A stretch of DNA of 64,000 nucleotides from positions 9,362,001-9,426,000 of the forward strand of contig NC_086108.1 in assembly GCF_963921235.1 (NCBI RefSeq), given 5' to 3'. Origin of the DNA: Mobula hypostoma. Taxonomy: Eukaryota. This document shows positions 6,065 to 61,225 of the stretch, piece by piece; position 1 is the stretch's first letter; every line of letters begins with the position of its first letter. A program made the position numbers and the translations under genes. A model generated the notes under the pieces. That model was given only the letters and a program-made list of their open reading frames with translations. It was not told the origin of the DNA and made no database searches.

Positions 6065-6780
6065 CACCCCTTGGGTAACACTTCACCTACAAAATCTGCT
6101 GAGGTCATCTATTGTGTCCAATGTGCCTACTCTACATTGGTGAGACCCATTGTAAATTGGGGGACTGCTTCATCTATCACCTCCTCCAAAAGCGGAACTT
6201 CCCAGTGGCCAAACCTTTTAATTTCCGTCCCCTTTCCAGTTATGACATGTTTGTCCACGGCCTTTACTTGTGCCAGGATGGGGCCACCCTCGGGGTGGAG
6301 AAGCAACACCTTTTATTGAGGGCATGAATATCAATTTTTCCTTCCGATAAATAAAAATTCCCTCCCCTTCCCCCTTTCTATATTCCCTACTCTGTCCTCT
6401 TACCTCTTCTCACCTACCTATCACCTCCCTCTGGGTCCACTCCTCCGCTCCTTTCTCCTTTTTCCTGTTGTCCACTCTCCTCTCCTATCAGATTCCTTCT
6501 TCAGCCCTTTACCTTTCCCGCCCACCTGGCTTCATCTATCACCTTCTAACTATCCTCCTTCCCCTGGCCCCACATTTTTTTATTCTGGGGTCTTCCCCCT
6601 TCCTTCTCAGTCCTGAAGAAGGGTCTCAACCTGAAACGCTGACTGTTTATTCTGGGGTCTTCCCCCTTCCTTTCTCAGTCCTGAAGAAAGGTCTCAACCT
6701 GAAACGCTGACTGTTTATTCATTTCCATAGAGGCTGCTGGACCTGCTGAGTTCCTCCAGCATTTTATGTGTGTTGTCTTG
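6065..6780 (+). mobile_element. Penelope-like element 3' remnant (GIY-YIG C-terminus plus pseudo-LTR)
   Basis: Frameshifted VIYCVQC / LLYIGETHCKLGDCF GIY-YIG motifs, a pyrimidine-rich spacer, then a duplicated CTGAAGAAGGGTCTCAACCTGAAACG motif. Confidence 0.8.
6608..6713 (+). ncRNA. Tandem pair of degenerate minimal hammerhead-ribozyme motifs
   Basis: 6608-6645 and 6676-6713 read CAGTC-CTGAAGA-A-RGGT-CTCA-ACCT-GAAA-CGCT-GACTG. Stem I is CAGTC/GACTG and the core boxes are intact, but the cleavage triplet is mutated. Confidence 0.65.
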
Positions 6781-7282
6781 GGATTGGGTCCTGTTTAAAT
6801 GTCACTAAGAGTCTGTTTTTTTTTTGTATTTTGAAGGAGACAGTATGGTAACAGGCCCCTCCAGCCCAACGAGCTGTAAGAGTAAATTCTGTAAGTGAAT
6901 GTTGTACATGGGTTTAGTGCAGAATCTTGGCCACCACCCCCCCCCATACGCTAAAATGAAGTGTTGACAACTGTCTTAGCAACTGTTCTACTCAGCCATG
7001 ACAAACCAGTGAACAAAGACACCATGCACATCCTCTTTCTGGTAGATCTTCCACACTGCTTCTGATAAAAGTTTAATAGTGGATCAGAAAGGATGGGCTT
7101 TTTATCAAACTATGTGCAAGAACTCAAAAGGAAGAAACAGAGGAAAGGTGCACGTAAGGAATGCGCTGTGGAAGAGCCTGGTAGCTCATTCAGTAAAGCA
7201 TAAGACTTTTAATCTGCCGATTTGGAATTTGAGGATTAATTTTCTTATGGTCTTTTCTGGAGTTGAAAAGTTTTTGATTAGT

Positions 7283-7690
7283 CGTCATCATCATCATTAT
7301 GTGCCATGTCATTTGACATTGACGATCATGGTCTCATGACCATGATTGTTATTGACAAATTTTTCTACAGAAGTGGTTTGCCATTGCCTTCTTCTGGGCA
7401 GTGTCTTCACAAGATGAGTGATTCCCCCCCCCCCACCTAACCATCATCAATCCTCTTCAGATATTGTCTGCTTGGCATCAGCGGTCATATAACCAGGACT
7501 TGTGATGTGCACCAGCTGCTTATATGACCATCCCCACATTCTCCCATAGCTTCACGTGACTCTGATCAGTGGGGGGGGGAGGGGGGGGTGCTAAGCAGAT
7601 GCTACACCTTGCCCAAGGATAACCTGCAGGCTAGTGGAGGGAAGGAGTGCTTTACACATGCTTCGGTAGAGATATATCTCCACCCCGCCA
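7283..7690 (-). mobile_element. RTE-mobilised SINE-like element
   Basis: Homologous to 30-445. Confidence 0.6.
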
Positions 7691-8269
7691 CTTGATTAAG
7701 TATGGGCGTCAATGGTTATGGGGTAGGGCCACCATTGTAGCATGGCAGCGTGACGTTATTACAACTCAGGGCGTCAGAGTTCAATGTAAAGTTTGTATGT
7801 TCTTCTCATCACTGTATAGGTCTCCTCTGGGTGTTCCAGTTTCCTCCCACAGTACAAAGACATGTGGGTTAGTAAGTTAATTGGTCATTGTAAATTGTCC
7901 CATGATTAGGCTAGGGTTAAATCAGTGGGTTGATGGGCTGGAATGGCCTGTTCCCACGCCATACCTCTAAATGAACAAATAAGATGGGGTTGAGAGGGAT
8001 AATGGTATGATGAGGGCTGTGATGGAATGACAGAGCAGACTCGATGGACTGAATGGCCTAATTCTGCTCCTATGCCATACAGTAGTAGCAAAGTGAATCA
8101 GTTTGAGTGAGATTTTATGAGCACCTCAGATAGACTGATGATGCCAGTTCTCATAACAGTATGCAATAATTTATCCAGTATTCTAAAGGGGCGTGCACAA
8201 GAGGCAGCAGTCCAGTTCCACATGGCTATGGGGAGAAGACAGCACAACGGGGTCGAGAAAAGTATATAC

Positions 8270-8685
8270 AGCCCATTACGCCACTGGCATTTAGGACAGT
8301 AATGAAGGTCCTCTGTCTCTGGCGGTGTTCAGGGCTTCCTTCATTGTGTCAGTAGCTTCCCCTTGGTTTTCACTACTGTCAGTCACTTAAGTCCCGGGTG
8401 AAGACTCTAGAATACCATTGCACTCAGATGTAGAAGGACTTTTCATTGCTGTTTCCATAACAGTTTTGCTTTACCAGTCAGGGTTGTTAGCCCTGTGCTG
8501 AACCTCCGGACCTGAAGGACTGGTGGACCACTCTTAGTCTGGCCTCCATCCTTTGACCTGTTTGGCATGGGTGACCCTACTAAGAACCAAAGCACAAAGC
8601 CCTGACTCCAGCCAACATAGCTCCCCATGTCATTGAGACACACTAGCCTCCAAACTATGACAAGGTTGTGGTCCTCTTGGAGGAA
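8270..8685 (-). mobile_element. RTE (Rex3/Expander-like) non-autonomous element
   Basis: Homologous to 4365-4850. Confidence 0.55.
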
Positions 8686-8715
8686 TGGGGTTCAGAGTGA
8701 AAATAAATCGGCCAT

Positions 8716-9400
8716 AAATGGTAAGACTCTTGGCAGTGTAGAGGATCAGAGGGATCTTGGGGTCTGAGTCCATAGGACACTCAAAGCTGCTGCGCAGGTT
8801 GACTCATTGAGTTTAAGAGCCGAGAGGTAATGTTACAGCTATATAAGATCCTTGTCAGAATCCACTTAAAGTGGTTCAGTTCTGGTCATCTCACTACAAG
8901 AAGGATGTGGAAGCTATAGAAAGGGTGCAGAGGAGATTTACAAGGATGTTGCCTGGATTGGGGAGCATGCCTTATGAGAATAGGTTGAGTGAACTCAGCC
9001 TTTTTTCCTTGGAGCAACGGAGGATGAGAGGTGACCTGATAGAGGTGTATAAGATGATAAGAGGCATTGATCGTGTGGATAGTCAGAGGCTTTTTTCCAG
9101 GGCTGAAATGGCGAAAACAAGGAGATACAGTTTTAAGGTGGTTGGAAGTAGGTACAAAGGATATGTCGGGGTTAAGTTTTTTACGCAGAGAATAGTGAGA
9201 TGTGTGGAATGGGCTGCCAGTAACAGTGGTGGAGGCGGATATGATAGGGTCTTTTAAGAGACTCCTGGATAGGTACATGGAGCTTAGAAAAATAGAGGGC
9301 TGTGGGTAATCCTAGGTAATTTCTAAAGTAAGTACATGTTCGGCACAGCTTTGTGCGCCGAAGGGCTTGTATTGTGCTGTAGGCTTTCTAAGTTTCTATA
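8716..9400 (+). mobile_element. CR1 LINE 3' fragment
   Basis: ORF 8871-9257 VQFWSSHYKKDVEAIERVQRRFTRMLPG...RGDLIEVYK, followed by a TTTCTA-type tail. Confidence 0.85.
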
Positions 9401-13316: not shown

Positions 13317-14798
13317 AAATGAGATACTGTGTGGATAATGAGATTATTATAGATGGGTGGAAAGGTGAAGATTGACATGGTGGGCTGGAGGGCCGATTTA
13401 TGTGTCCTCCGACTGTGCTGATCCTATCAATATTGACAAGATGAAAACCTCATGCCTAGGAGAGAGAATCTTCTCTGATTGATGAACACTAACAGTCCCT
13501 GCTGGCCCCACCACTAGTTTATTAAATTGCTAGTGTGAATTCTGTCTAGAACAGGATGCTGCAATCTAAAGTTTGCCTGGAAATTTGTTCCCAGAGAATA
13601 CATAATAGAGCAGCACTGTGTTGTGCCTCTGAAATTCATTTCATTAGCATTATGTTTAGACACTGGATGGGTCAGATGGCACATTCTATGGGTGACAGTT
13701 ATACTCAAAGCAGAGAGAGTGTGTCTTTGGCCACGAGCGCTATTCGGGCTGTGCTTCGCAATTATTCTTTCACTGGAAGCCCATAAAACTGAGAACATGC
13801 AACATGCATCTGTGTAAGATTTATCTATTTAGCGATATAGTGCAGAGTAGTCCCTTCTGGACCTTTGAGCCATGCTGCTCCAGCAATCCCCAACAAGCTC
13901 AATTAATCCTAAGCTAATCACAGGACAATTTACAATGACCAAATAACCTACCGGGTAGCTCCTTGGACTGTGGGAGGGAAACCGGAGCACCCAGGGAAAA
14001 CCCATGCATTCCACGGGGAGGACAACCAGGCTCCTACACAATGGCGTGGGAATTGAACTCTGAACTCTAGATTGCCTCAAGTTAAAATAGCATTGCACTA
14101 CACTCCCAGTGCAAGTCAACAGAGACTGCAAACCTGGAACAAAAACAGAACTCTGGAAGAACACTACGTCAAATAGCATCAAATAGAAGGCAAAATGTGT
14201 CAGTTAATGTTTCAGGTTGAGACCTTTCATCAGAAAGTGGGGCGGCGTGGTAGCGTAGCCATTAGCACAATGCTTAACAGTACAGAAAACAGGTTCAGTT
14301 CCTGCTGCTGCCTTCTCCCCATGACCGCATAGGTTCCCTCCGGGTGCTGTGGGTTCCTCCCTCAGTCCAAAGACGTACTGGTTGGTAGGTTAATTGGTCA
14401 TTGTAAATCGTCCCATGATTAAGCTAGGATTAAATCGGGGAATTGCTGGACTCAAAGGGCTGGAAGGGCCCTGTTCCACACTGTATCTCCATAAATAAAT
14501 AAATATATACAGTGCGAACATATGTACCAAGGTGCAACAAGAAAGATTACAGAGCCTCATCAGACCAACAACTAAAGTGACTGCCTTCCCAAGTAAGGAA
14601 ACTTATCCCGAGAATTTTGCCTTTGAGCCGTTTGTGGGAAGGAAAGTTTTGCATTTTATTTCAAAATCAGGTTTTGTTATCTCCAGCATGTGTCGTGAAA
14701 TTAACTTTCTTACTGAGGAAGACAGTCACGTTAGTTGTTGGTCTGATGCGGCTCTCTCAGTTTACTGAGAATTGCCTTCATGTTAAGATGTGATTTAC

Positions 14799-15439: not shown

Positions 15440-18240
15440 CTTAATACTGCAAAAGAGGAATTGCAAGGTAGTGTTCATGGATTCATGGACCGTTCAGAAA
15501 TCTGATGGCAGAGGGGAAGATAATGATCCTAAAACATTGAGTGTGTGTCTTCAGGCTCCTGTATCTCTTCCCTGATGGTAGTAGTAAGAAGAGAGCATGC
15601 CCTGGATGGTGAAGGTCGTCTATGAAGGATGTTGCCTTCTTGAAGCATCCATATTGGTGGGAAGGGTAGTGCTGTGATGGAGATAGCTGAGTCTACAACC
15701 TCCTGCAGCTTTTCCAATGCCTTGCTTTGGAGCCTCAGTACCAGGTTTAATGTAACCAGTCAGAATGCTCTCTACCATACATCCATACAAATTTGTTAAG
15801 AGTCTTTGATAACGTACCAAATCTCCTCAAACTCCTAATCAAGTACAGTTGTGGCCTTTTTCGTGATTGCTTCAATGTGTTGGGCCCAGGATAGATCCTC
15901 TGAGGTGTTGATGCCCGGGAACTTAAAGCTGCGCACCCTGACCTCCCCTTCCTGAAGTCCAGAGTCAGTTCCTTGGTCTTGCTAACATTGAGTGTAAGGT
16001 TGTTGTTGTGACACCACTCAACCAGGTGATCTGTCTCAGTCCTGAAAGCATCTTCATCACCATCTGAGATTTTGCCAACAACTGGTGAATTTATTGATGC
16101 GTCTTTGAGCTGTCTAGCCACATAGTCATGAGCGTAGAGAGTGGTGCAGTGGACTAAGAACATGTCCTTGAGGTGCACTTGTATTGATTGTCAGCGAGGA
16201 GATGCTATCACCATATGTACTTACTGACAGTGGGATCCCGATGTTGAAGTCAAGTATCCAGTTGTAGACGGAGGTACAGAGGCCCAGGTTTTGAAGCTTA
16301 TCGATTATTATTGAGAGGATGATGGTGTTGAACACTGAGCTGTAATTGGTATCGCTGTTGTGTAGGTGGCCCAGAGCCAAGTGGAGTGCCAGTCAAAGTA
16401 CATGCTCTAATTGTAACAGGGTCCTGACAGAGATCACAGTCACCAGACACTGAGGATTCCCACAGAGAGAATTGTGTTATTCTTCCTTTCAGAGTGTGCA
16501 TAAAAGGTGTAGAGCTCATCGGAGACTGAAGTATCACAATCATTTATGTTGTTAGGTCTTACCTTATAGGAAATAATGACAAACAAACCCTGCTGCAGCC
16601 ATTGTACATCCATTGTATCTTTAACTTCACCTGGAATTGTCTTTTCGCTCTTACCTTAGCCTTTCATAGGTCGTATGCAGCGTTGTTCTGGTTCTGGATC
16701 ACCATCTTGAACCCACAGGCTCACCCTCAGCATACTGTTTATCCACAGCTTCTGATTTGGGTTTGTCCAGTATGTTCTCCAAAGTGCACACTTATCCACA
16801 CAGGTCTTGAGAAATTCAGTGACGACTGCAGCATATACATTCCAATCTAAAGATGAATCCTAAAATATGGTCCACTCCACTGATTCAAAGCAGTCCTGTA
16901 AGCATCCCTTCACCTCTCTTGACTATACATTCGCAGTCCCTCGCCACAGTCCTTAATCTCTACCTCTCTGTCAGGAGTAGAAGTTCAAGGGGGTCTATGA
17001 GTCCGTAACCACAAAATACTCTGCAGATGCTGGGGTCAAAGCAACACTCACAACACGCTGGAGGAACTCAGCAGGTCGGGCAGCATCCGTGGAAACGATC
17101 AGTCAACATTTCGGGCTGGAACCCTTTGTCAGGACTGAAGAGGGAAGGGGCAGAGGCCCTATAAAGAGGGTGGGAAGGAGAAAGCTGGTAGGTTCCAGGT
17201 GAAAAACCAGTAAGGGGAAAGATAAAGGGGTGGGGGAGGGGAAGCAGGGAGGTGACTGATCATTTCCACGGATGCTGCCCGACCTGCTGAGTTCCTCCCA
17301 CGTGTTGTGAGTGTCTATGAGTCCGTGATCTGCAACTGCACTCAAGTTGCGTTTCTTCACTGGGTTCCTGCTCTCGGAGCTCGCTGATATCTCCAGGAGA
17401 TATGGGATCTCCTGGAAAATGGGCGCTTCAGGGTGATCTCTCTCCCTCTCCCTGGTTAGTGTGAGAGAGAGCCTTTGGCATGCCGAACTGTTGGGTGAAC
17501 AGTGGTATTTGATGGTGCTAGATCATGGTCTCTTTGAGGGCTTTGCTGTTGCTTGCTTGCCAGGTGGTGGTGGAGGGTTGATGTTTTGCTGCTGCTTGTG
17601 CCTGGGAGGGAGTATTTGGGGTTCTAACATTTTCTTGTCATTCATTCCTTGGGGGTTGTTCCTTCTGTTTCATGGATGTCTGTAAAGAACAAGAATTACA
17701 GGTTGTATACTGTATACATTTTCTGAAATGAAATGGAACATTGAGGTGATTAGATTTGCCAAAGTGCCAAAGGATGGCATGTCACGCATTCTTGATGGTG
17801 GAATAACAGTGGTCAAGTGTGTTGGCTCTCCTGGTTCCACAAGTGATATGTTGGTGGTGGTTGGTTAGAGACTTCCTCAAGCTGACCTGGTTGAAATTCC
17901 CCGCAATGATAGGGAAAGCATCGGAGTGCACTGACACACGACTGCTAATCACAGAGCTGAGCTCCTCCAGCGCCAGCCTGACATTGACCAGGAGGATGGC
18001 TGAATAGAATAGACAACTCTTGACTGCCAGATGTTTGAGGTCGGGGGAGCAGGACTGTGTACCACAATGAGTTCATCATGAAGCAAATGCAGGCGCATCT
18101 GTGTTTGCCCAACTCTGTAGTCTGGTCCATGTGCTGGATGGTGAAGCACTTGGGCTGGAGTGCCATGTCAAGATGGAGTCAATAAGTGTAACTGCCCCAG
18201 TTTCTGTGACTAGAGTGTCCACAGTGTGCCAAGAGGTACA
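15440..18240 (-). mobile_element. Degenerate Rex1/Babar-like LINE (EN and RT remnants) with nested inserts
   Basis: Peptides LVEWCHNNNLTLNVSKTKELTLDFRKG, MVESILTGYI and an EN-like CICFMMNSLW. Interrupted at 17007-17312 and about 17390-17740. Confidence 0.7.
17007..17312 (-). mobile_element. 306-bp Penelope-derived insertion with inverted arms and a 14-bp TSD
   Basis: GTCTATGAGTCCGT at 16993-17006 and 17313-17326. Inverted repeat at about 17044-17105 / 17253-17314. Hammerhead-like motif at 17100-17137. Confidence 0.8.
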
Positions 18241-20200: not shown

Positions 20201-20399
20201 TTAATGACTGTTTTGGGAACAGCGTCTTCCTTTCTGTCACCAGATTTCTAAATGATCCACGAACACTGCCCCACTATTTTCCTCTCCTTTTTATTTATAT
20301 TTCTGACTGTAACCTTCAGTAAACTTTTATGTATTGCACTGTACTGCTAATACAAAACAACAACAAATAATAATATCATTCTGATTCTGAAATACAGAA

Positions 20400-21060
20400 C
20401 CTCCCTCCCTGCAAGTGGCCACGGCCAAAGTGCTACACCTGCTCATTCACCTCCATTCAGGCCCTTCCGGGTGGGCTCCCAGTGCGGCCTCCTCTACATT
20501 GCTGAGGCCCATCGTAAATTGGAGACTGCTTCATCGTGCACCTCCACTTCTTCCGTCATAAGTGGAACTTCCCAGTGGCCAAACATTTTAATTCTGATTC
20601 CCATTCCCGTTCTGACATGTCAGTCCATGGCCTCTTGTGCCAAGACAAGGCCTCCCTCAGGACGAGGAGCAACACCATATATTTTGTCTGAGTAGCTTTC
20701 AACCTGATGGCATGAATATTGATTTTTTTCCTTCCGCTAACTAAATTTCTCCTCCCTCACTCCTCTCTATTCCCCACTCTGGACTTTTACCTTTTCTCAC
20801 ATACAAATCACTTCCCCCTGTGCCCCTTCTCCTTCCCTTTCTCCTATGGTCCATTCTCCTCTCCTATCAGATTCCTTCCTCTCCAGCCCTTGATCTTTCC
20901 CACCCATCTGGCTTCACCTATCATATTCTGGCTAGCTTCACTCCACTCCATCTTTATTCAGGCATCTTCCCCCTTCCTTCTCAGTCCTGAGGAAAAGTCT
21001 CGGCCTGAATCATCGACTGTTTATTTCTTTCCATTGATGCTGCCTGACCTGTCTGTGCTG
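20400..21060 (+). mobile_element. Penelope-like element 3' remnant
   Basis: SQCGLLYIAEAHRKL GIY-YIG remnant and a hammerhead-like motif at 20982-21019. Confidence 0.75.
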
Positions 21061-24957: not shown

Positions 24958-25059
24958 GTTAGAAATACAGTTACTTACCTAGAAATGCTAGTGGGAGAGC
25001 TAGATCAACCTTCCAAACAAGCTGCTGGAATTAACATAGGAGGAGTGTTTGTTGTCTCT

Positions 25060-26262: not shown

Positions 26263-27859
26263 GTAGGTTGAAGTGTGAGTGATGGATGGACAGTGCATGG
26301 CTTTAATCCATACAACAGATCTAATTTTATGACTAATTGTCGGATAAATAATTTCATTACAAACAAGCTTTCATGATCTCAGGAACGCCCTAAAATATTT
26401 TACAGTCATTGAAGTGATTCTGAAATGTGCTCACTATTAGAACAGCCAGTTTGTGTACAGCAACATTTCGCGTATATCCTTCTCTTCAGACGAGAACAGC
26501 ACAACTGACCTGGGTTCCATTCCCACTGCTGTCTGTAAGGAATTTGTACATTCTCTCTGTGAGTTTCCTCCAGGTGCTCTGGTTTCCACCCACATTCCGA
26601 TGACGTACAGGTCAGTAGGTTAATTGGTCATATGGGTGTAATTGGGCCTCTTAGAAAGATTCAAAGTATGTATGCAGTACACAACCCTGAGATTCATCTT
26701 CCCCACAGACAGCCATGAAACAAAACCATGGAACCCATTCAAAGAAAAACATCAAACCAACCCTCCACCGCGCAAAACAAAAACAAATATTGCCCAATAC
26801 TCAGACTCTGGCACCATCCTCCAACAGCATCGTGAGAGAGGGAGAGAGAGACCATTCAAATGCAGGGAGCTTCCTCTCTGAGCAGCAAGTGAGAGGCTGG
26901 TAGACGGTGCTGAACACCCGCTCGCATTCCACTCTCACCTCAGTGATTTCAGTCTTCCTCGATGCTTTGATTGGCTGCAAATGGAGTCAGTCACGAGCTC
27001 ACGCCCCGCCTCCAGGCTTCTTGGCCTCGAAGGCCACACAGTCCGCTCGAAACCTCACTGATGACCATTCAATCAAACACACAGCCAAAATGTCAATCTC
27101 AGGCTCCAATAGTAACGGAAACACATTTGAAAGAAAAAGAAGTGACAAAAGTAGTTTCATGGACCATTTGAAATACATCGCCCTTGGCCACATTATTCAC
27201 TGGCACCATCTTCATGCTGTAGTTAAATAAAATAACCCCCTCAGTTTGGGCCCCACTTCAACATATGGGCAACATTCTGTTTAATCTGTGCTCCAAAATG
27301 CTAGTATATGTTCACCCACTTCTCCACTTTTGTTCCCATCTGTTGCCACCTCTCACATCGCCCGCTTGCTGGAAGCTGCGAGTAAACATAGACCGGGAGG
27401 GAAATAACAGGTGTCCCATTGAGCACACCCCAGAGAACCTGCAAGAAACCTGGGCTCAGTTATTTGAACTTCCCAAGTTGGCTATAGGAACATGTCATCA
27501 ACCTCTTAGAGACTTGTGCAATTTCCTCTCCTCCCACCAGTACATTTTCTGGGAAATACTGAAGGCATTAACCTAACCCAGGAACCGAATGATCAGACTG
27601 GGCTCGGCCCAAAACATTGACTGTTTATTCCCCTCCATAGATGCTACCTGACCTGCTGAGTTTCTCCAGCACTTTGTGTCTGTGTGTGTTGCAAAGAATA
27701 AATTTGGTTCCGTATCCCTGAACTTGGCCCTTCTGCAGCAAATTGGTGAGGCCTTAGAGGTTTCAGGTTGGGGAACTGTGGTCCACTGTTCTCACTTCTA
27801 TTGCAAAGGTTGAGGAGAGATGAGTGGGACATCACATTACAGTTGTACATAAGCCTAGA

Positions 27860-28370
27860 TGAGGCAACTCTCAGACCGGAAGAGCAACACTTCATATTTC
27901 TGTCTGGGTAGCCTCCAACCTGATGGCATGAACATTGATTTCTCCAATTTCTGCTAATTTATCCCCTCTCTCCTGACCCCATTTGCTCTTTTTCCATTCC
28001 TCATTCTGGCTCTCCTCGCATGTCTTCTCTTCTCACCTCCCATCATCTCCTTCTGATTCCCTCTTCCTTCCCTTTCTCCCATGGTCCACTCTCATTTCCC
28101 ATCAGATTCTTTCTTCTTCAGCCCTTTACTGTCCAGCTTCTCACTTCCATCCACCCACCTTCCCCCTCACCTGGCTTTACCGATCACCTGCCAGTTTGTA
28201 CTCCTTTCCCTCCCCCTCACCTTTTTTATTCTGATGTCTTCTCCCTTTCCTTTCCAGTCCAGTCCTGACAAAAGGTCTCCGCTCAAAACAACAGGGGAGG
28301 GGGGAGCTTGCTGAGTTCCTTAAGCATTTTGCGTTGTTCTGGATTTCCAGCATCTGAAAGAATCTCTTAT
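27860..28370 (+). mobile_element. Penelope-like element 3' remnant
   Basis: LGSLQPDGMNIDFSNF-like terminus and a degenerate CAGTCCTGACAAAAGGTCTC motif. Confidence 0.7.
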
Positions 28371-29976
28371 GGTCCAAAGATGTTGTCTAGATTGGAGGTC
28401 TTAGTTATCAGGAGGGACAGGATACACTGTGTCTGCTTTCTCTGGAGTGAAGGAGGCTGAGAGGTGAAAATTATAAAACTATGAAAGGGTCAATGGTGTC
28501 TCTTCCCCAGGGTAGGGGAATCTAACATTAGTCCATGAGACCATAAGATATAGGAGCAGAATTCGGCTGTCTGACCCATCGAGTCTGCTCCATCATTTCA
28601 CCACAGCTGATCCAGTTTCCCTCTCAGCCCTAATCTCCCGCCTCTCCCCATATCCCTCAATACACTGACCAATCAAGAATCTTATCAAACTCTGCCTTAA
28701 ATATACATAAAGACGGCTACCACAGCTGCCTGTGGCAAAGAATTCCACAAATTCACCACTCTCTGGCTAAATTCTTCCTCATCTCCATTCTAAATGGACA
28801 CCCTCTATTCTGAGTGTTGTCATTATCATTTGGCATTTAGAAAGTTTGGACTAGCACTGTGTAATCAGTCTTCACACAAGCTTCATTGCAGTCTGTACTC
28901 CAGTGGGAATGCAGGTGAAAAACTCAGCCCCCTCTATACCCGTCCCCAACTACACAACCCCATGTAAAAGCACTGTGGCTGTCACACAGAATTTCTAAGC
29001 CCATATCTCCTTCCTGACGTGAATTCAGTACAACAATCAACAGTTGTTTCCTGACCTGAAAACTGGCTAATTAGGACTTTATTACAAGAGTGAAATGCTT
29101 TCCTCCACTGTCTGGTCCTTTACAATCTTCCTTTGGACGCAGATTGCACTAACAAAAGATCAAAAACACAGGTTGCCCCTGGAGAATGTTTCGGTGAGCG
29201 ACCTTGAACCAGTACCATTCTGCTGAAGATGTTGCCAAAGCTAGTGTAGTGAGGTCCAGGATTTCCAGTGAAGGACAATCAATGTATATTCATGTCAAGG
29301 AGGGATGTGGTCATGGGAATGGGAGGGGTGAGTGTTCAGCATTGTCCACCAGCTTCTTGCTTGCTGCTGCCGGAGAAGGTGTCTGCATGAGGTGGTTTTT
29401 TGCTTGATCATCCCAAGGGAAGTTCCCTGCTTTTGAGTTGTGTTTATAACTCGGCAGATGATGCCGGAACAAGGTTTAGTCCATGTGGATTGTAGTTTTG
29501 GACTATAATTCAGGTTTATGATGTGTTCTAGTTCTGTCACCTTTTTTGTCCCTACCCTTGGATGATTTTTGAACCAGGTGGCCCGTAGATAATGAACAGT
29601 GAGCTGAACTGTACTGAAATATGCCTTTTGATCTTGTGTTTTTATATTCTGTGTTTTTGATCTTTTGTTTTTTGCCGTCTGTGCAATTTTTTTTGCATAT
29701 GGTGGAGAGGGTGGGTTTGATGTTTGATGTTTTTCTTTGAACAGGTTGGTTCCATGGTTCCTCTTTGTTTCGTGACTGTGGGGAAGATGAATCGCAGGGT
29801 TGTATACTGCATACATACTTGTACCTTGTAAATGTACCTTGAATCTTGAAACCTGTTGTTTGATTGTGGGATGTAGGTAACACTGGCAAAAGTTCTAAGA
29901 TTCATTTATTATCAAAGCATGTATCCAAATACAACTTGAAATTTGTCTTCTCCAGATAGCCATGAAAATAATATGT

Positions 29977-34211: not shown

Positions 34212-34524
34212 CCGTAAGTCGTTCAGAGAGAAACATCAAACCCACCACCCCCCCCATACAAAACAAACGGCAGCCTGATGATTGACCCCCTCCCCACACA
34301 AAACGGGACGGGGACATCGACCGTCAAACCTTCTTCCCCTCGCATGACAAAACAGAAAAGAAACGGCGGTTAAAGAAACACAGAATATAAAAAAGTCCAC
34401 CGTTCATAAACGTAGTAGTTCAATCCATAAACACAGAACCACAATATGACCAACATTCATCGAAAGAGAGGGACACCACACGAGGCAGACAGGCCTACCC
34501 ACTTGCCACAGCGAGCCACACAAC

Positions 34525-35010
34525 ATCCATAGAAGTGAATAAACAGTCGATGTTCTGGGCCCAGAACCTTCATCAGGACTGGAAAGGAAGGGGGAAGGTG
34601 CCAGAATAAGAAGGCGGGGCGGGGGGAGTGTGGAAGGAGGATGAGCTGGGAGGTGAAGCCTGGTGGGTGGGGGAGGGAGATGAAAATCTGGGAGGTGAGA
34701 GGTGGAAAAGGTAAAGGGCTGGAGAAGGATGAATCTGATAGGAGAGAAGAATGAAAAATTACTAGAAGCTGGAGAAATCGATATTCACGCCATCATGTTG
34801 GAGGCTACCTAGATGGAAAACCTTCAACCTGAGGGTGCCATCGTCATGACAGAAGAGGCCATGGACTGACATATTGGAATGGGAACGGGAATAGGAATTG
34901 AAATGGTTGGCCACTGGGAAATCCTGCTTTTTACACTGGAGCTTGATGAAATGGTCCCCCAATTTACATCAGGGCTCACCAATGTAGTGGAGGTCGCATT
35001 GGGAACAATG
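34525..35010 (-). mobile_element. Penelope-like element 3' remnant
   Basis: ORF 34762-34962 FPVANHFNS...LGSLQHDGVNIDFSSF and a hammerhead-like motif at 34544-34581. Confidence 0.8.
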
Positions 35011-46529: not shown

Positions 46530-46885
46530 CGGGGGGGGGGGGTGATGTCTGAATAAAAAGGGAAAGGAGGCTGGCCAGGTGGGTGGGAAAGGTCAACAGC
46601 TGGAGAGGAAGGAATCTGATAGGAGAGTAGAGAAAAGGAAGGAGGAGGGACCCCAGGGGGAGGTGATAGGCAGGAGAGGGGAATAGAAGTGGTTGCAGGG
46701 TGGGGGGAATTTGTGATTTTTTTCACCAGGAGAAATCAATATTCATGCCATCAAGTTGGTGGGTACGCAGACAGAATACAAGGTGTTGCTCCTCCACCTG
46801 AGGGGGGCCTCATCTTGGCACAAGAGGCAGCTACGGACCCAGAACAGGAATGGGATTCAAAATTAAAATGTTTGGCCACTGAAAT
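46530..46885 (-). mobile_element. Penelope-like remnant flanked by a diverged direct repeat of about 75 bp
   Basis: Homologous to 34525-35010. Flanks 46451-46524 and 46888-46963 are similar to each other. Confidence 0.65.
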
Positions 46886-48172: not shown

Positions 48173-50259
48173 CTATGGACAAACAAACAAACACAAACTT
48201 AATGTATTTAACACCCAACTTGATGCAAAACCTTTAATGCACGAGCAATGGATGCAAGCTGAATTGCCTCCCCTCATGATGCATAACTTGGCACTCCCTC
48301 CCAGCTCATTACCTCCCTCAAAGGGGAAACAATCGGAGAAATCACGGCAGAAACAACAAAATGACTGAGGGACGTTATCAAATGAACTTTAAGTGATGCC
48401 AGGGCAAACGATGTTTGGTCTCAGGTCAATTGATTTAAACTCTTTATTGAGGATCCAACAGTAACTTCTTATTAGAGCTGGAAATATTCCGTTTGACAGG
48501 CAACAGATCTGAAAGGAAACATTTCCAATTGCAGACTTCCACAGCATGGAAACAGGCCCTGCTACCCAACTCATGCTTGCTGACTGCACTGTCCAGTGAG
48601 CTAGTCCCATCTGCCCACCTCTGGCCTATAGCCCTCGAGACAAAGCACAGAACCAGCTCTTCCAGCTGCACCACCCAGCAGCCTCCGATTTAATCCCAGC
48701 CTAATCACGGGACAATTTGCAGTGACCAATTAACCTACCAATCGGTACGTCTTTGGACTGTGGGAGGAAACTCTCACGGTCACGGGGAGAATGTACAGAC
48801 AGCAGTGAGAATTGAACCTGGGCTGCCTGTACTGTAAAGCTGTGCGCTCTCCACATGCCTCGAAACCTCTGCTCTCCATGTACATACCTACACGTTGCTA
48901 ATGCGCCCACCTCAACCCACTACTTCTGGCAGCTCATTCCAAATACGTGAATAAACTGCGAATATCCTTTAAATCTCTTGCCTCTGGTCGTAAACCTATG
49001 CCCCCTTTTCAGTTATCACCCTCTCCAAGTGCACTCACCAACAGCTTATACCAAAACTTCCCAACTTCTGTGCCCGATGTTATGACCGACAAAGGCCAGT
49101 GTCGCCTTCTTCACCTGCACTGGTTGGCAATCAGACTCCTTCTGACAGATGTTATCCAAAATAATACGGCTTTTTCCCAATTTCAAGGATTTCCAGCAGC
49201 CTTTGTTGCTCATTAAACAAGTAAGCGTGGGGTGGCACGGCAGCATAGTGGCTAGCACAAGGCTTTACAGTACCAGCATCCTGAGTTCAATTGCCCCCGC
49301 CGCCTGCATGGAGTTTGCACATTCTCCCCGTGACCGTGTGGGTTTTCCCCAACAGTCCAAACACACCAGTGATAGATTAATTGATCACTGTAAGTTGTCT
49401 TGTGATTAGGCTAGGATTAAATCAGGAGATTGCTGAGCGGTAAAGTTCAAAAAGCTTATTCCACGCTGTATCACACTAAATAAATAATCAGGATTTGACC
49501 ACACTCCAAACCTCACAGAGAGGTGAATACAAACAGCCTCAGCGGAGAAGCAGCATTGATGATTCTGCCTGGGAGATTCAGAGGCCTGCTGAGAGCCAAG
49601 AGAGGAATGGATGAGGGACTAGAGACCTCAGGAGTCTACTTGGGCTGAGCAGTTAATAACAAAGTAGAGGAGGTGTGAGAGGCAGCAGACACTGGGGTCT
49701 GGAGCAACAGACAATCTGCTGGATGAACCCAGCAGGTCGAGCAGCGTGTGTGGGTGAAAGGAATAGTTTCTGCTCCGGGACTATTTGCAGTGCTTCAAGG
49801 ATTTAAATAACTTGCCTCAGCACAGAACCTAAACTAACTTGGGACGTCTTAAAGTTACATATTATATAAACACGAGAAATTCTGTAGATGCTGGAAATCC
49901 ACAGCACACACAAAATGCTGGTGGAATTCAGCAGATCAGGCAGCATCTGTGGAGAGGAATAAACAGTCGACATGTCAGGCTGAGACCCTTCATCAGAACT
50001 CTCAAATGAAGGAGCTCATCCCAAAATGTCAACTCCTTTTTCCCTTTCCACAGATTCTGTCTATTCCCATTTCACTCCATTGCTCAACACACCGAGTTCC
50101 TCCAGCTGGTTGTCTGTCGGCCCAGAAATCTAAAACAGTGCCTGGGCTTAGGTGCAAGTTAGAAATGACCAGGTTGCCCCAACTCCCAGTTACAGCTCGG
50201 TAATGAAGCAGAGAATAATACACCTCACATTTCTGGTCAGATTAAGTGGAGTACTCTAC

Positions 50260-56800: not shown

Positions 56801-57097
56801 TTTACAACTCTCTTAGCCCTTATACAATTATGTTGAAAAGTGGCCCTTCTTGATGCTTGCCCTGGATTTGTCGGCCTGCCACTTTTACTTTTCTCCTTAC
56901 TACTTTTTGCTTCTACCCTCACTTTACACCCCTCTGTCTCTCTGCACTGGTTCCCATCCCCCTGTTGTGAACTAACCTCCTCTCGCCTAGCCTCTTTAAT
57001 TTGATTCCCACCCCCCAACCATTCTAGTTTAAAGTCACCTCAGTAGCCCCCGCTAATCTCCCTGCCAGGATATTGGTCCCCCTAGGATTCAAGTGTT
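53886..57097 (-). mobile_element. Young CR1 LINE with the end of ORF1 and a near-complete ORF2
   Basis: ORF1 end HLNPRGTNILAGRLAGATEVTLN* (stop 57024-57026). ORF2 of 981 codons (EN+RT) stops about 30 aa early. (CATAGAAA)n tail. Confidence 0.97.
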
Positions 57098-57454: not shown

Positions 57455-59556
57455 AACCATATAACAATTACAGCACGGAAACAGGCCATCTCAGCCCTTC
57501 TAGTCCATGCCGAACTCTTACCCTCACCTAGTCCCACCGACCTGCACTCAGCCCATAACCCTCCATTCCTTTCCTGTCCATATAGCTGTCCAATTTAACT
57601 TTAAACAACAACATCAAACCTGCCTCAACCACTTCTGCTGGAAGCTCGTTCCACACAGCTACCACTCTCTGAGTAAAGAAGTTCCCCCTCATGTTACCCC
57701 TAAACTTTTGCCCTTCAACTCTCATGTCCTCTTGTTTGAATCTCTCCCACTCTCAATCGAAAAAGCCTATCCACGTCAACTCTATCTATCCCCCTCATAA
57801 TTTTAAGTACCTCTATCAAGTCCCCCCTCAACCTTCTACGTTCCAAAGAATAAAGACCCAACTTGTTCAACCTTTTTCTGTAACTTAGGTGATGAAACCC
57901 AGGTAACATTCTAGTAAATCTTCTCTGTACTCTCTCTATTTTGTTGACATCTTTCCTATAATTCGGTGACCAAAACTGTACACAATACTCCAAATTTGGC
58001 CTCACCAATGCCTTGTACAATTTCAACATTACATCCCAACTCCTGTACTCAATGCTCTGATTTATAAAGGCCAGCATGCCGAAAGCTTTCTTCCCCACCC
58101 TATCCACATGAGAGTCGACATTCAGGGAACTATGCACCATTATTCCTAGATCCCTGTGTTCCACAGCATTCTTCACTGCCCTATCATTTACCATGCATGT
58201 CCTATTTTGATTAGTCCTACCAAAATGTAGCACCTCACATTTATCAGCATTAAACTCCATCTGCCATCTTTCAGCCCACTCTTCTAACTGGCCTAAATCT
58301 CTCTGCAAGCTTTGAAAACCTACTTCATTATCCACAACTCCACCTATCTTAGTATCATCTGCATACTTACCCATCCAATTTACCACCCCATCATCCAGAT
58401 CATTAATGTATATGACAAATAACATTGGACCCAGTACAGATCCCTGAGGCACACCACTAGTCACCGTCCTCCAAACTGACAAACAGTTATCCATCACCAC
58501 TCTCTAGCGTCTCCCATCCAGCCACTGCTGAATCCATTTTACTACTTCAATATTAATACCTAACGATTGAACCTTCCTAACCAACCTTCCATGTGGGACC
58601 TTGTCAAAGGCCTTACTGAAGTCCATATAGACAACATCCACTGCTTTACCCACGTCAACTTTCCTAGTAACCTCTTCAAAAAATTCAATAAGATTTGTCA
58701 AACATGACCTTCCACGCACAAATACATGTTAACTGTTCCTAATCAGGCCCTGTCTATCCAGATAATTATATATACCATCTCTAAGAATACTTTCCATCAA
58801 TGTACCCACCACTGACATCAAACTCACAGGCCGATAATTGCTAGATTTACTCTTAGAACCCTTTTTAAACAATGGAACATGAGCAATACGCCAATCTTCC
58901 GGCACCATCCCCGTTTCTAATGACATTTGAAATATTTCTGTCAGAGCCCCCGCTATTTCCACACTAACTTCCCTCAAGGTCCTTGGGAATAACCTGTCAG
59001 GACCCAGAGACTTATCCACTTTTATATTCCTTCAAAGTTCCAGTACCTCCTCTTCTTTAATCATCATAGTTTCCATAACTTCCCTACCTGTTTCCCTTAC
59101 CTTACACTATTCAATATCCTTCTCCTTAGTGAATACTGAAGAAAAGAAATTTTTCAGAATCCTCCCCCATCTCTTTTGGCTCCACACATAGCTGTCCACT
59201 CTGATTCTCTAAGGGACCAATTTTATCCCTCACTATCCTTTTGCTATTAATATAATTGTAGAAACCCTTGGGATTTATTTTCACCTTACTTGCCAAAGCA
59301 ACCTCATATCTTCTTTTAGCTTTTCTAATTTCTTTAAGATTTTTTTTACATTCTTTATATTCCTTGAGCACCTCATTTACTCCATTCTGCCTCTATTTAT
59401 TGTATATGTCTCTCTTTTTTTGAACCAAGTTTCCAGTATCCCTTGAAAACCATGGCTCTCTCAAACTTTTAACCTTTCCTTTCACCCTAACAGGAACATA
59501 AAGATTCTGTACCCTCAGAATTTCACCTTTAAATGAGCTCCATTTCTCTATTACAT
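57455..59556 (-). mobile_element. Older CR1 subfamily copy, frameshifted
   Basis: GVPQGSVLGP, YADD, YMDFSKAFDKV and SNYRPVSL across ORFs 57528-59371. Confidence 0.9.
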
Positions 59557-59559
59557 TCT

Positions 59560-59790
59560 TTCTACATATCAGATTCTTTCTTCTCCATCCCTTGACCTTT
59601 CCCACCCACCTGCCCTCACCAGCTAGCCTCTTTTCTTTCTCCCACCCCACCACTTTATTCAGGAGTCTTCCCCCTTCCATCTCTGTCCTGAAGAAGGGTC
59701 TCAGCCTGAAACTTTGACTGTTTATTCATTTCCATAGATGCTGCCTGACCTGCTGAGTTCCTCCGGCATTTTGTATGAGTTGCTCTTCCA
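59560..59790 (+). mobile_element. Penelope-derived pseudo-LTR fragment
   Basis: Hammerhead-like motif at 59683-59720. Confidence 0.7.
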
Positions 59791-60216
59791 GATTATGCAT
59801 TATTTTTAAACCCCAGTCGTCTTCTCCTCCACTTTTCCATACATCTTCAACTTCCTGAAGGAATCCGAAGCAGGTTTATTATCACTGACATATATACCAG
59901 GTGCCATGGAATCAGCAGTGCAATACATTAAAAACTAGAAATTACAATTAGAAATCTATATAAAAAGTAAATTAAATAATTAGTGTAAAAAGCACGTGAG
60001 TGAGTGAGGTAGTGTACATGGTTTCATTGTCCATTTAGGAATCTGGTGGCAGAAAGGAGAAGCTGTTCCTAAAATGTTGAATGTGTGCCTTCAGCCTCCT
60101 GTACCTCCTCTTGAATGGAAGAGGGCATGTCCTATGAGTACATAAACACACTGTTTATTTGTTGTTAATATTTATTATAATTCACTGCAAATTTTAGATA
60201 CTGTATTTCATTGTAT

Positions 60217-60525
60217 GGGTGACGGGGTGGAGATACATCTCTACCAAAGGAGGTGTAAGGTGATCCTTCCCTCCACTAGCCTGCAGGTCACCCTTGGGCA
60301 AGGACTAGCACCTGCTTAGTAGCACCCCTTCCCCGATTAGGGTCACTTGAAACCACGGGAGCAGGTGGTGGACGGTCGTATGAGCAGCCGGTGCATATCA
60401 CAAGTCCTGGTGAGGTGACCACTGACACCAGGTAGACAATCTCTGAAGGGTATTGATAATGACTGGGGTCACCCGTCTTGTAAAGACACTGCCCAGAAGA
60501 AGGCAAAGGCAAACCACTTCTGTAG
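60217..60525 (+). mobile_element. RTE-mobilised SINE-like element
   Basis: Reverse-complement homolog of 30-445. Confidence 0.6.
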
Positions 60526-60739
60526 TATGAGGTCAGGTGGGAATAGAACGTGAGGTCATGGGTTAGGGTGAAAGGTTTAAGGGGAATTTTTTCACTCACA
60601 GGGTGGTGAGAGTTGCCAGCGGTGGTGGATAAGGGTTTGATTTCAACTGTTCAGAGAAATGTTGATAGGTATGGGGGTAGGAGGGACATGGTGCGGGTTC
60701 AGTTCGATGGGACTAGCAGAGTAATAGTTCAGTGAAATA

Positions 60740-61225
60740 AGCCAAGATGAGGCCACCCTTAGGGCGCAGAGCAACATCTTCCGTCTTGGTGGCCTCCAGA
60801 CTGGTGGCATGAATATTCATTTCTCCTTCTGGTGGTAAAAAAATTCCCTCCCACTCCCTCTTTTTCTATCCCCCATTCTGGCCTCTTACCTCTTCTCACC
60901 TGCCTATCTATCGCTTCCTCCTGGTGCCCCTCCTCATTCCCTTTCTCTTATGGTTCATTCTCCTCTCCTATCCGATTCCTCCCTCTCTAGCCCTTTTCCT
61001 TTCCTACCCACCCAGCTTCACCTATCACCTTCCACCTAGCCTCCTTCCCCTCCCCCACCGTTTCGTTCTGGTGTCTTCCCCCTTCCTTCTCAGTCCTGAA
61101 GAAGTGTCTTGGCCAGAAACATCGACTGTATTCATTTCCATAGATACTGCCTGACTTGCTGAGTTCCTCCAACATTTTGTGTGTATTGCTTTGGATTTCC
61201 AGCATCTGCAGATTTTCTTGTGTTC
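60740..61225 (+). mobile_element. Penelope-like element 3' remnant
   Basis: Homologous to 6065-6780, with a hammerhead-like motif at 61091-61128. Confidence 0.75.

What the first reader, a model, noticed from the sequence alone, without database searches (positions are those of the whole stretch)
6608..61128. Dispersed minimal hammerhead-ribozyme family carried by Penelope-derived repeats
Seen: copies at 6608(+), 6676(+), 14201(-), 17100(-), 20982(+), 28260(+), 34544(-), 49964(-), 59683(+) and 61091(+) give the consensus CAGTC-CTGAWGA-A-GGGT-CTCR-GCCY-GAAA-CGTC-GACTG. This folds as a type I hammerhead: stem I CAGUC/GACUG, core CUGANGA plus an extra A, a 4-bp stem II, GAAA and a GUC cleavage triplet. 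Stem III is reduced to the palindrome ACGU, which can pair only in a dimer. Known: Penelope-like elements carry such minimal dimer-cleaving hammerheads. Inference: a very abundant ribozyme-bearing retroelement family in this genome. Every copy here departs from the consensus, and the copies sense to host introns (6608, 6676, 20982, 28260, 49964) all have core or cleavage-site changes. That could be CpG decay or selection against pre-mRNA cleavage.
Basis: partly seen in the sequence, partly recalled or inferred. Interest (0 to 1): 0.8.

Follow-up and report, generated by a model that had tools for sequence, protein, structure and literature searches.

The report
Decayed hammerhead ribozymes of Penelope retroelements
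The ten sites are worn-out tail ends of a hugely abundant Penelope-like jumping gene, each carrying the small "dimer-type" hammerhead ribozyme motif already known from this class of elements, so the finding is correct but of a known kind.

Summary
Nine of the ten motifs lie exactly at the stated coordinates; 28260 is a degenerate, truncated copy. The carrier is a Penelope-like element (PLE) of Neptune type. Five window copies are preceded by remnants of its GIY-YIG endonuclease. Full-length copies elsewhere in the same 3.48-Gb genome have a 1043-aa RT + CX4CxxC + GIY-YIG frame. They also have about 0.7-kb pseudo-LTRs, with the motif on each side, about 3.5 kb apart.

The family is enormous: 89,638 copies of the 33-nt core if only CpG-type changes are allowed, and 39,061 identical copies of the young master variant. 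The window copies belong to older subfamilies. Half of their changes (26 of 53 outside N7) are CpG transitions. All ten are damaged whatever their strand, so nothing here calls for selection against sense-intronic ribozymes, and ten copies give no power to test it.

The motif fits the published minimal hammerhead of metazoan PLEs. Self-cleavage was not shown: there is no covariation inside this one family, no Rfam match, no usable RNA data, and no insertions starting at the cleavage site.

This is a new member of a known kind. The scan has met PLE hammerheads before in other genomes. Side observations: a 5'-end hot spot at the ribozyme's edge and frequent head-to-head pairs.

The parts
6115..6785 (+). 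PLE 3' fragment: GIY-YIG coding remnant 6115-6321, hammerhead motifs 6608-6645 and 6676-6713 (local 68-nt tandem duplication), tail to about 6785
   Evidence: TRF 6579-6720. The duplication junction occurs only 2 times in the genome.
14140..14238 (-). Short PLE tail fragment of another subfamily with a hammerhead-like motif at 14201-14238 (11 mismatches). Its 5' edge abuts a tRNA-derived SINE lying on the other strand.
17010..17184 (-). PLE tail fragment of a third subfamily, motif 17100-17137 (G8>A, C15.2>T, C17>T)
17253..17334 (+). Inverted tail-only fragment lying head to head with the 17100 copy
   Evidence: 86.9% over 84 nt to 17022-17105, opposite strand
20398..21051 (+). PLE 3' fragment: ORF remnant 20398-20726, motif 20982-21019, tail cut about 32 nt after the motif
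27858..28374 (+). PLE 3' fragment: ORF remnant 27858-27951 and a degenerate, internally truncated motif near 28260-28290
34509..35010 (-). PLE 3' fragment: ORF remnant 35010-34777 (54% identity over 87 aa, E 1e-20), motif 34544-34581
49865..50012 (-). PLE tail fragment that starts at the 5' edge of the hammerhead; motif 49964-50001
59539..59787 (+). PLE tail fragment, motif 59683-59720
60743..61228 (+). PLE 3' fragment: ORF remnant 60743-60826, motif 61091-61128 (no strict-core change, but helix II and the palindrome are damaged)
46574..46885 (-). PLE fragment (ORF end and 3' UTR) with no hammerhead found
4631..4717 (+). Tail-only PLE fragment. Similar fragments lie at 19557-19662(-), 27600-27692(+) and 14841-14889(-).

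Best explanation
The ten sites are old, mutated 3'-terminal fragments of Neptune-type Penelope-like retrotransposons (PLEs).

Shown by sequence. [quoted passage not shown] The 38-nt motif lies about 300 nt after the stop codon and 61 nt (or about 100 nt, with the optional 'tail') before the element's 3' end. Because insertions form partial tandems (pseudo-LTRs), a second copy lies about 85 nt before the ORF, 3.5 kb upstream of the first. The motif is a minimal type I hammerhead: helix I xAGUC/GACUG, core CUGANGA, one unpaired A, helix II GGGU-CUCG-GCCY, GAAA, and ACGU-C in place of a closed helix III.

Inferred from published work on such motifs, not shown here. One copy alone cannot form helix III. 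Two copies, on two RNAs or in one more-than-unit transcript, pair their ACGU palindromes into a shared helix III. Each core then cuts after GUC, which trims PLE RNA out of longer transcripts.

After insertion the copies are dead DNA. The window copies have decayed mainly at the four CpGs of the motif.
For: Exact sites and strands. PLE coding remnants upstream of 5 of the 10 sites.

Full-length copies L063 to L067 each have a 1043-aa open frame. A motif lies on both sides in 4 of 5: three match the CpG-tolerant pattern on both sides and one has G8>A upstream. In L066 only the downstream motif was found. Spacing is 3513-3517 nt, and the pseudo-LTR 2487-3198 equals 6004-6711 at 97-99% identity.

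Pfam gives RVT_1 at E 6.2e-5 and GIY-YIG at E 0.0022, in that order; both are below the gathering scores. The sequence reads PCKRNKCYTC and VIY-CVRCSRCGL-LYIGET. The nearest Atlas clusters carry RVT_1, GIY-YIG and HTH_animal, scores 0.97-0.98.

The 5' ends vary (-2 to -1136) while the 3' ends are fixed, in 30 of 30 loci. There are two 3'-end classes about 40 nt apart. Head-to-head pairs: 11 (-,+) pairs within 2.2 kb against 1 (+,-) pair among the first 100 places.

Genome counts: 102,770, 89,638, 39,061 and 1,198; reversed controls are all 0.

The W and Y subfamilies differ at 4 of 38 motif positions, namely 2.5 (C/U opposite G), N7, a loop base and C17. Sequence from -60 to -10 is not alignable.

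The architecture equals the published min-HHR alignment, for example Acropora Neptune and Nematostella. [quoted passage not shown]

CpG-type changes make up 26 of 53 non-N7 differences but fall on 8 of 37 positions.
Against: Cleavage was not shown.

- Within this genome's copies there is no significant covariation: 86.5% of cells are paired against 86.0% in shuffles, and 95 of 500 shuffles reach the observed value.
- No Rfam hammerhead model matches, even for an intact copy at E up to 10.
- Nearest-neighbour energies do not favour the double hammerhead: -11.5 kcal/mol against -30.3 for the dimer MFE and -22.0 for two monomers. The master monomer prefers a GACG/CGUC helix that buries the cleavage site.
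- Of 71 distinct young tails held, 0 to 1 starts at the predicted cleavage product end G1.1.
- The tail downstream is conserved about as well as the motif, so conservation alone does not single out the ribozyme.
- The master variant has U at 11.1 (G.U). This also occurs in published PLE hammerheads.
- Published work reports low in vitro activity for such motifs. For a lizard PLE, hammerhead mutants did not affect in vitro insertion and no RNA-seq ends lay at the cut site.
Confidence: 0.78

Rival explanations
1. The motif is a hammerhead by descent, but in this family it is kept for another reason. It would be part of the conserved 3'-terminal module (motif plus tail hairpin) that the element's RT or endonuclease recognises, or a fold that marks an RNA end. 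It would cut little or not at all in vivo.
For: The tail is conserved between subfamilies about as well as the motif. No insertions start at the cut site (0 to 1 of 71). The predicted alternative GACG/CGUC helix and the weak double-hammerhead energy point the same way. There is a 5'-end hot spot at the motif's 5' edge. Frangieh et al. 2024 (passages) report that HHR mutants do not change in vitro insertion and that RT starts at internal tail sites.
Against: Every strictly conserved core base is kept in the masters of all subfamilies, and the only core position that varies is N7, the free one. The same architecture recurs in PLEs of many phyla with different helices. Published dimers and PLE hammerheads do cut in vitro, though weakly.
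Confidence: 0.17
2. Intact ribozymes are selected against when they lie sense in host introns, and that is why the sense copies in this window carry core or cleavage-site changes.
For: Of the other five, 17100 and 34544 have strict-core changes, 14201 and 59683 have only C17>U (still an allowed NUH), and 61091 has none. A 2026 preprint reports retrozymes depleted from introns in Xenopus (abstract and passages).
Against: The comparison is 5 of 5 against 2 of 5, with 6608 and 6676 being one event, so it is not significant. All ten copies are disabled in some way: the palindrome or helix II is broken in 14201, 59683 and 61091. CpG decay accounts for 26 of 53 changes. In the older W subfamily, by my reading of the first 100 rows, only 9 keep CGTCG and none matches the whole consensus, so decay is the rule everywhere. 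Host genes and their strands were not verified: Pfam found no host domain in the candidate exon.
Confidence: 0.04
3. The dispersed copies are a separate non-autonomous element (retrozyme- or SINE-like hammerhead-plus-tail units) and not truncated PLEs.
For: Six of 30 hammerhead-selected loci begin 2 to 4 nt before CUGA and are only about 100 nt long. Two window copies (14201 and 49964) also start there.
Against: The other copies show a continuum of 5' ends reaching into the PLE ORF. No tandem arrays were seen, and the one tandem junction occurs twice in the genome. The short units are identical in sequence to the PLE's own 3' end.
Confidence: 0.05

Closest known systems
Minimal hammerheads (min-HHR) in the pseudo-LTRs of metazoan Penelope-like elements (Cervera and de la Pena 2014, PMC4209133)
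   Same: Type I topology, a short helix I, CUGANGA followed by one unpaired nucleotide, GAAA, no closed helix III but a palindromic C-G at 15.2-16.2, GUC/GUU, one copy in each pseudo-LTR, and mostly solitary truncated copies across the genome. The supplementary alignment lists near-identical layouts, for example Acropora Neptune (CUGACGAA GGGC UAAC GCUC .. CGUC) and Nematostella.
   Different: Helix II here has only 4 bp plus a 4-nt loop; many published families have 6-8 bp. The copy number is far above the roughly 4,000 (coelacanth) and 9,000 (Xenopus) quoted there. The young master is nearly invariant (39,061 identical copies), unlike the 'extreme variability' described for most genomes.
Canonical endonuclease-positive PLEs of the Neptune/Nematis type (Arkhipova 2006; Craig et al. 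2021, PMC8557442, passages)
   Same: A single ORF with RT then C-terminal GIY-YIG, cysteines between GIY and YIG, a CX2-5CxxC linker, partial-tandem pseudo-LTRs, heavy 5' truncation, adjacent inverted copies, and an optional tail of about 40 nt.
   Different: The clade was assigned from motifs only; no RT phylogeny was made here. The ORF hits Pfam RVT_1 and GIY-YIG only below their gathering scores.
Poseidon PLE of Anolis carolinensis (Frangieh et al. 2024, PMC11167929, passages)
   Same: A hammerhead sits next to the start of the unit. Two alternative 3' ends define the 'tail', which that paper explains by internal initiation of reverse transcription.
   Different: There the ORF starts inside the hammerhead and the cut site lies 26 bp after the start codon. 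Here the cut site lies upstream of the open frame.
Non-LTR retrozymes and canonical type I hammerheads (Rfam Hammerhead_1)
   Same: The same catalytic core and a weak or palindromic helix III that calls for dimers.
   Different: No closed helix III, no loop-loop tertiary contacts evident, no tandem arrays, and no Rfam match.

Membership tests
PLE minimal hammerhead (min-HHR) | Catalytic boxes CUGANGA and GAAA, and an NUH cleavage triplet at the right spacing | tested here: met
   Met in the family masters: 39,061 exact copies of CTGACGA-A-GGGTCTCGGCCT-GAAA-CGTC-GACTG and 1,198 of the CTGAWGA...CCC variant. Not met in most window copies, which are mutated.
PLE minimal hammerhead (min-HHR) | [quoted passage not shown] | tested here: met
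   An A follows CUGANGA in the consensus of 102 aligned copies. The hallmark is listed.
PLE minimal hammerhead (min-HHR) | G10.1-C11.1 base pair | tested here: inconclusive
   In 61 distinct sequences: GC 30, GU 24, AU 4, other 3. The young master has G.U. G.U also occurs in published PLE hammerheads.
PLE minimal hammerhead (min-HHR) | No closed helix III; palindromic 15.2-16.2 (ACGU) that can pair only between two copies | tested here: met
   GAAA-CGTC is contiguous in the consensus.
PLE minimal hammerhead (min-HHR) | Helices I and II supported by compensatory changes | tested here: inconclusive
   Within this genome: 86.5% paired against 86.0% shuffled, 95 of 500 shuffles as high. Across species the published alignment shows different helices with the same layout, but I made no joint alignment.
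PLE minimal hammerhead (min-HHR) | Location in both pseudo-LTRs of a PLE | tested here: met
   A motif lies on both sides of the ORF in 4 of 5 full-length loci, inside the direct repeats of L064.
PLE minimal hammerhead (min-HHR) | Mg2+-dependent self-cleavage as a dimer | not testable with these tools
   No RNA run is on record as RNA and only contigs were available. Energy models do not favour the dimer.
Canonical EN+ Penelope-like element (Neptune type) | A single ORF with RT followed by a C-terminal GIY-YIG endonuclease | tested here: met
   RVT_1 at aa 582-697 (E 6.2e-5, 23.2 bits, below the cut-off of 29.6) and GIY-YIG at aa 946-1002 (E 0.0022, 18.7 bits, below 22.6). The Atlas neighbours carry the same domains. 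Both Pfam hits are sub-threshold, so this is met by order and motifs, not by score.
Canonical EN+ Penelope-like element (Neptune type) | CCHH motif with two cysteines between GIY and YIG, plus a CX2-5CxxC linker upstream | tested here: met
   VIY-CVRCSRCGL-LYIGET and PCKRNKCYTC in the translation. The features are as quoted.
Canonical EN+ Penelope-like element (Neptune type) | Partial-tandem pseudo-LTRs, 5' truncation, an adjacent inverted copy, and a 30-40 bp optional tail | tested here: met
   11 head-to-head pairs against 1 convergent pair in 100 places; two 3'-end classes about 40 nt apart.
Canonical EN+ Penelope-like element (Neptune type) | RT groups with PLE RTs (sister to TERT) in a phylogeny | not tested
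   No tree was made. phmmer against PDB chains gave 0 hits.
Rfam hammerhead families (type I/III models) | Score at or above the family's gathering threshold | tested here: not met
   No hammerhead hit in the window at gathering score or at E up to 10, nor on an intact copy, L064:6560-6700. This is expected, since these models include a closed helix III.
Non-LTR retrozyme | Tandem arrays of short hammerhead-bearing units | tested here: not met
   The only tandem in the window (68-nt period) has a junction found 2 times genome-wide, against 6,438 for the normal junction.

The most novel reading that the evidence does not exclude
In this family the ribozyme's 5' edge, not its cut site, is a preferred end of retro-copies. 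About 100-nt 'hammerhead plus tail' mini-insertions and head-to-head palindromes meet within a few bases of CUGA. This would mean that PLE template RNAs begin (by transcription start or processing) or reverse transcriptase switches strand at the folded hammerhead. The motif would then act as a structural boundary of the template, not only as a cutter. With tens of thousands of near-identical young copies and intact ORFs, this genome could settle what PLE hammerheads are for.
Probability: 0.2. Interest if true: 0.55.

Novelty: new member of a known kind. Interest (0 to 1): 0.28.

Why it matters
Hammerheads in Penelope-like elements have been known since 2014, but their role is still unsettled. 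They cut poorly in vitro, and in the one element reconstituted so far they were not needed for insertion. This genome offers an unusually clean system. It has a recently expanded family, with 39,061 identical copies of the core and several copies with an open 1043-aa frame, alongside older decayed subfamilies. RNA-end mapping and insertion-end statistics here could test directly whether the ribozyme cuts in vivo. For genome annotation, the result says that more than 10^5 small 'ribozyme' hits in this assembly are relics of one retroelement class, not independent functional RNAs.

Tried and rejected
- my first core-only pattern had the wrong spacer (14 instead of 13) and is uninformative.
- wrong coordinates, corrected. 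The 290-aa C-terminal piece alone then gave no Pfam family at E up to 0.01.
- a fuzzy regex missed most copies and was replaced by an ungapped scan.
- RNA evidence: no RNA holder is listed. All 23 runs are kept as contigs and their kind is guessed. Laying 4 of them showed only that related organisms hold the element; no starts or ends can be read from contigs.
- SINE-borne hammerhead at 14201: rejected. The tRNA-like SINE lies on the other strand and merely abuts the fragment. ARAGORN finds no tRNA.
- Built-in tandem dimer (6608/6676): rejected.
- Insertions beginning at the cleavage site: not found.
- Lunse, Weinberg and Breaker 2017 (PMC5785218) is not held; I saw only its title in a reference list.
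- phmmer against PDB: 0 hits.
- Host-gene strands: not resolved. The SANT-like ORF 24688-25116 gave no Pfam hit.
I then asked for counts only.
- Earlier notes of this scan on this genome: none.

Full report
OBSERVATION. I read all ten places and scanned the window without gaps using the 38-nt consensus. The tenth, 28260(+), is recognisably the same repeat but has lost the GAAA-CGTC-GACTG part. The reversed consensus found nothing in the 326 kb I held, against 108, 115 and 122 real hits at up to 8, 10 and 12 mismatches. The window's own genome is held as G000: 3.48 Gb, 200 contigs, with the window at C50:9362001-9426000. There the 25-nt core with up to one mismatch occurs 51,174 + 51,596 times, and its reversed control never. 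My first pattern used a wrong spacer and says nothing. Rfam reports no hammerhead in the window, at gathering score or at E up to 10.

WHAT CARRIES THE MOTIF. Self-comparison shows that each motif sits in a repeat, with up to about 450 nt upstream and about 140 nt downstream. I fetched 30 genomic loci with a CpG-intact motif. All 30 share a fixed 3' end, while their 5' ends range from -2 to -1136 relative to CUGA. That is the signature of a 5'-truncated retroelement.

The longest copies run into an ORF that ends about 300 nt before the motif. A search with that 290-aa piece gave 234,226 first-look candidates. All 135 that were scored had E values of 2e-170 or lower, and 5 of the 135 have a 1043-aa open frame. 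I fetched those five (L063 to L067).

- Each of the five has the 1043-aa frame.
- Four of the five have a motif on both sides of the ORF. In three, both motifs match the CpG-tolerant pattern; in one, the upstream motif has G8>A. In L066 only the downstream motif was found.
- The two motifs lie 3513-3517 nt apart.
- In L064 the stretch 2487-3198 repeats at 6004-6711 at 97-99% identity. This is a pseudo-LTR made by a partial tandem.

Pfam sees RVT_1 (E 6.2e-5) and then GIY-YIG (E 0.0022), both below their gathering scores. The translation shows PCKRNKCYTC in the linker and VIY-CVRCSRCGL-LYIGET. These are the CX2-5CxxC motif and the cysteines between GIY and YIG. Craig et al. 2021 (PMC8557442, passages) give the cysteines between GIY and YIG as the mark of canonical PLE endonucleases, and the linker motif as the mark of Neptune/Nematis. 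The ESM Atlas neighbours (0.97-0.98) carry RVT_1, GIY-YIG and HTH_animal.

Further PLE traits are present.

- Among the first 100 places I count 11 minus-then-plus (head-to-head) pairs within 2.2 kb, five of them within 44 nt, against one plus-then-minus pair.
- The 3' ends fall into two classes, 61 nt and about 100 nt after the motif: roughly 30% and 60-65% of 72 copies.
- The extra 40 nt equal the first 40 nt of the full-length unit. This matches the optional PLE 'tail', which Frangieh et al. 2024 (PMC11167929, passages) explain by two internal start sites of reverse transcription.

Inside the window itself, tblastn with the full-length ORF finds endonuclease remnants directly upstream of five of the ten sites. 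'Penelope-derived repeats' is therefore correct.

ABUNDANCE AND SUBFAMILIES.

- 33-nt core allowing only CpG-type transitions and any N7: 44,757 + 44,881 = 89,638.
- Exact young master, CTGACGA-A-GGGTCTCGGCCT-GAAA-CGTC-GACTG: 39,061.
- CTGAWGA...GCCC variant with all CpGs intact: 1,198.
- Copies with intact boxes and the tail type seen in the window ('W'): 12,564.

All reversed controls are 0. The window holds no young copy. Seven of its copies have the W tail, and 17100 and 14201 represent two further tail types.

The W and Y majority sequences differ at 4 of 38 motif positions: position 2.5 (C or U opposite G), N7, one loop base, and C17. The last two are CpG decay in W. The 100 nt downstream are also well conserved, and positions -60 to -10 are not.

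DECAY AND THE SENSE/ANTISENSE IDEA. The nine ungapped window copies carry 59 differences from the consensus: 26 CpG-type transitions, 15 other transitions, 12 transversions and 6 at N7. CpG sites (8 of 37 positions) thus take 26 of 53 non-N7 changes, about 36% per site against 10% elsewhere.

All ten copies are disabled. Of the rest, 17100 (G8) and 34544 (G12, A13) have core changes. 14201 and 59683 have C17>U (still NUH) with a broken palindrome. 61091 has a damaged helix II and palindrome.

Five of five against two of five, with 6608 and 6676 being one event, is not significant. By my reading of the first 100 W-type rows, only 9 keep CGTCG and none equals the full consensus. Decay is therefore the rule for this old subfamily everywhere.

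I could not verify the host genes: the one exon-like ORF gave no Pfam hit. A 2026 preprint (abstract and passages) reports depletion of retrozymes from introns in Xenopus. The idea is therefore reasonable in general, but this window cannot bear on it.

The 6608/6676 pair is a one-off duplication between two TTTATTC words. Its junction occurs twice in the genome, against 6,438 for the normal junction.

IS IT A RIBOZYME? By sequence it meets the published description of metazoan PLE minimal hammerheads (Cervera and de la Pena 2014; I read parts 1-2 of 4 of the main text). The shared features are:

- the CUGANGA and GAAA boxes;
- a short helix I;
- no closed helix III;
- a palindromic 15.2-16.2;
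- GUC;
- a place in both pseudo-LTRs.

Their supplementary alignment (passages of file 2; file 1 could not be searched) lists the same layout with quite different helices in dozens of animals. It also shows G.U at 10.1-11.1 in several, as in the master here.

Tests that could have added support did not.

- In 61 distinct sequences of this genome, pairing is 86.5% against 86.0% in shuffles (95 of 500 as high), so there is no covariation signal. This is expected for one family of dead copies.
- Rfam models do not see even an intact copy.
- ViennaRNA gives the double hammerhead -11.5 kcal/mol, against -30.3 for the best dimer and -22.0 for two monomers. The master monomer prefers a GACG/CGUC helix that hides the cut site. 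Such models ignore tertiary contacts.
- Of 71 distinct young tails, 0 to 1 begins at the predicted 3' cleavage product.
- No RNA data were usable.

MECHANISM. Shown: the anatomy above. Inferred from the literature: two copies pair their ACGU palindromes into a common helix III, helix I forms between the copies, and each core cuts the other's GUC. This would release PLE RNA from longer or tandem transcripts. Reverse transcription then starts at one of two sites, 61 or about 100 nt downstream of the motif, which explains why the motif is copied into nearly every insertion. Cervera and de la Pena found low activity in vitro. Frangieh et al. found that hammerhead mutants did not change in vitro insertion and saw no RNA-seq ends at the cut site. 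What the ribozyme contributes in vivo is therefore open, here as elsewhere.

COMPARISON AND NOVELTY. This is a member of a known kind: the PLE minimal hammerhead on a Neptune-type PLE. What is particular is scale and youth. There are about 9 x 10^4 or more motif copies, against the roughly 4,000 and 9,000 quoted for coelacanth and Xenopus in 2014. There is also a nearly invariant master with open ORFs. My literature searches did not turn up a description of this family. The scan has met PLE hammerheads before, in other genomes.

SIDE OBSERVATIONS. Six of the 30 hammerhead-selected loci begin 2 to 4 nt before CUGA, and 11 of 30 begin within 25 nt. Genome-wide, I extended the master 33-mer upstream in steps of 3 nt. 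The count falls 39,061 -> 35,322 -> 28,864 -> 26,387, which is a loss of 9.6%, 18.3% and 8.6%. The excess loss at -4 to -6 fits a 5'-end hot spot at -3. Several head-to-head pairs meet within the hammerhead's first bases. I have no tested explanation. An RNA 5' end, a block to reverse transcriptase, or strand switching at the folded motif are all possible.

Noticed in passing
G000 loci L004, L009, L013, L016, L022, L028 (position about 1497 of each oriented locus); window 14201 and 49964 copies: There is a 5'-end hot spot 2-4 nt upstream of CUGA, giving hammerhead-plus-tail insertions of about 100 nt: 6 of 30 loci. Genome-wide, extending the master 33-mer upstream in 3-nt steps loses 9.6%, 18.3% and 8.6% of copies.
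   Followed up: partly
G000 C1, first 100 places; loci L001, L019, L022, L032; window 17022-17105(-) with 17253-17334(+): Head-to-head inverted pairs of PLE tails are common: 11 (-,+) pairs within 2.2 kb against 1 (+,-) pair. Several junctions lie inside or right at the hammerhead, and some form perfect palindromes.
   Followed up: partly
window 6740-6760, 59745-59765 and the same place in all subfamilies; L064:6675-6700: A conserved hairpin, TGCTG-N7/8-CAGCA, lies in the PLE tail about 30 nt after the hammerhead. It is kept between subfamilies whose loops differ, and is a candidate recognition element for the element's RT or endonuclease.
   Followed up: no
L064:6605-6642 (master motif): With N7 = C, the core bases GACG are complementary to CGUC at the cleavage site. 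The predicted monomer MFE (-11.0 kcal/mol) uses this helix in place of the active fold.
   Followed up: partly
window 1872-3299: Tandem array with a 57/115-nt period, about 25 copies, 93-95% matches. It gives long spurious ORFs on both strands.
   Followed up: no
window 50521-51099: Degenerate C/T-rich repeat of about 47 nt, 12 copies, 76% matches. It reads as proline-rich ORFs.
   Followed up: no
window 21795-24557(+), 54073-57039(-), 36538-38175(-), 57715-58503(-): LINE copies with apurinic-type endonuclease and RT domains (RVT_1 E about 1e-32 to 1e-33 in three ORFs, 3e-13 in 57715-58503). The copy at 54073-57039 has a 988-aa open frame.
   Followed up: partly
window 30500-33663(-): LTR-retroelement pol region (integrase core, RNase H, RT by Pfam), split over several frames. 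Described only.
   Followed up: partly
window 5355-5615, 7800-7981, 13819-14020, 14240-14540, 35232-35471, 49337-49487: A tRNA-derived SINE family with at least six fragments in the window. One copy abuts the 14201 hammerhead fragment. A weak RAGATH-13 hit (E 0.92, 25.7 bits against a gathering score of 80) at 13842-13930 lies inside it and is probably chance.
   Followed up: partly
window 24688-25116(+): An ORF with a SANT-like stretch (KTVAQCVEYYYTWKK) might be a host exon on the + strand. There is no Pfam hit at E up to 0.001.
   Followed up: partly
L064:2400-6800 laid with contigs of runs X1, X2, X5, X19: Several other coded organisms hold 36-63% of the element's sampled words, so close relatives of this PLE occur beyond this genome.
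   Followed up: no
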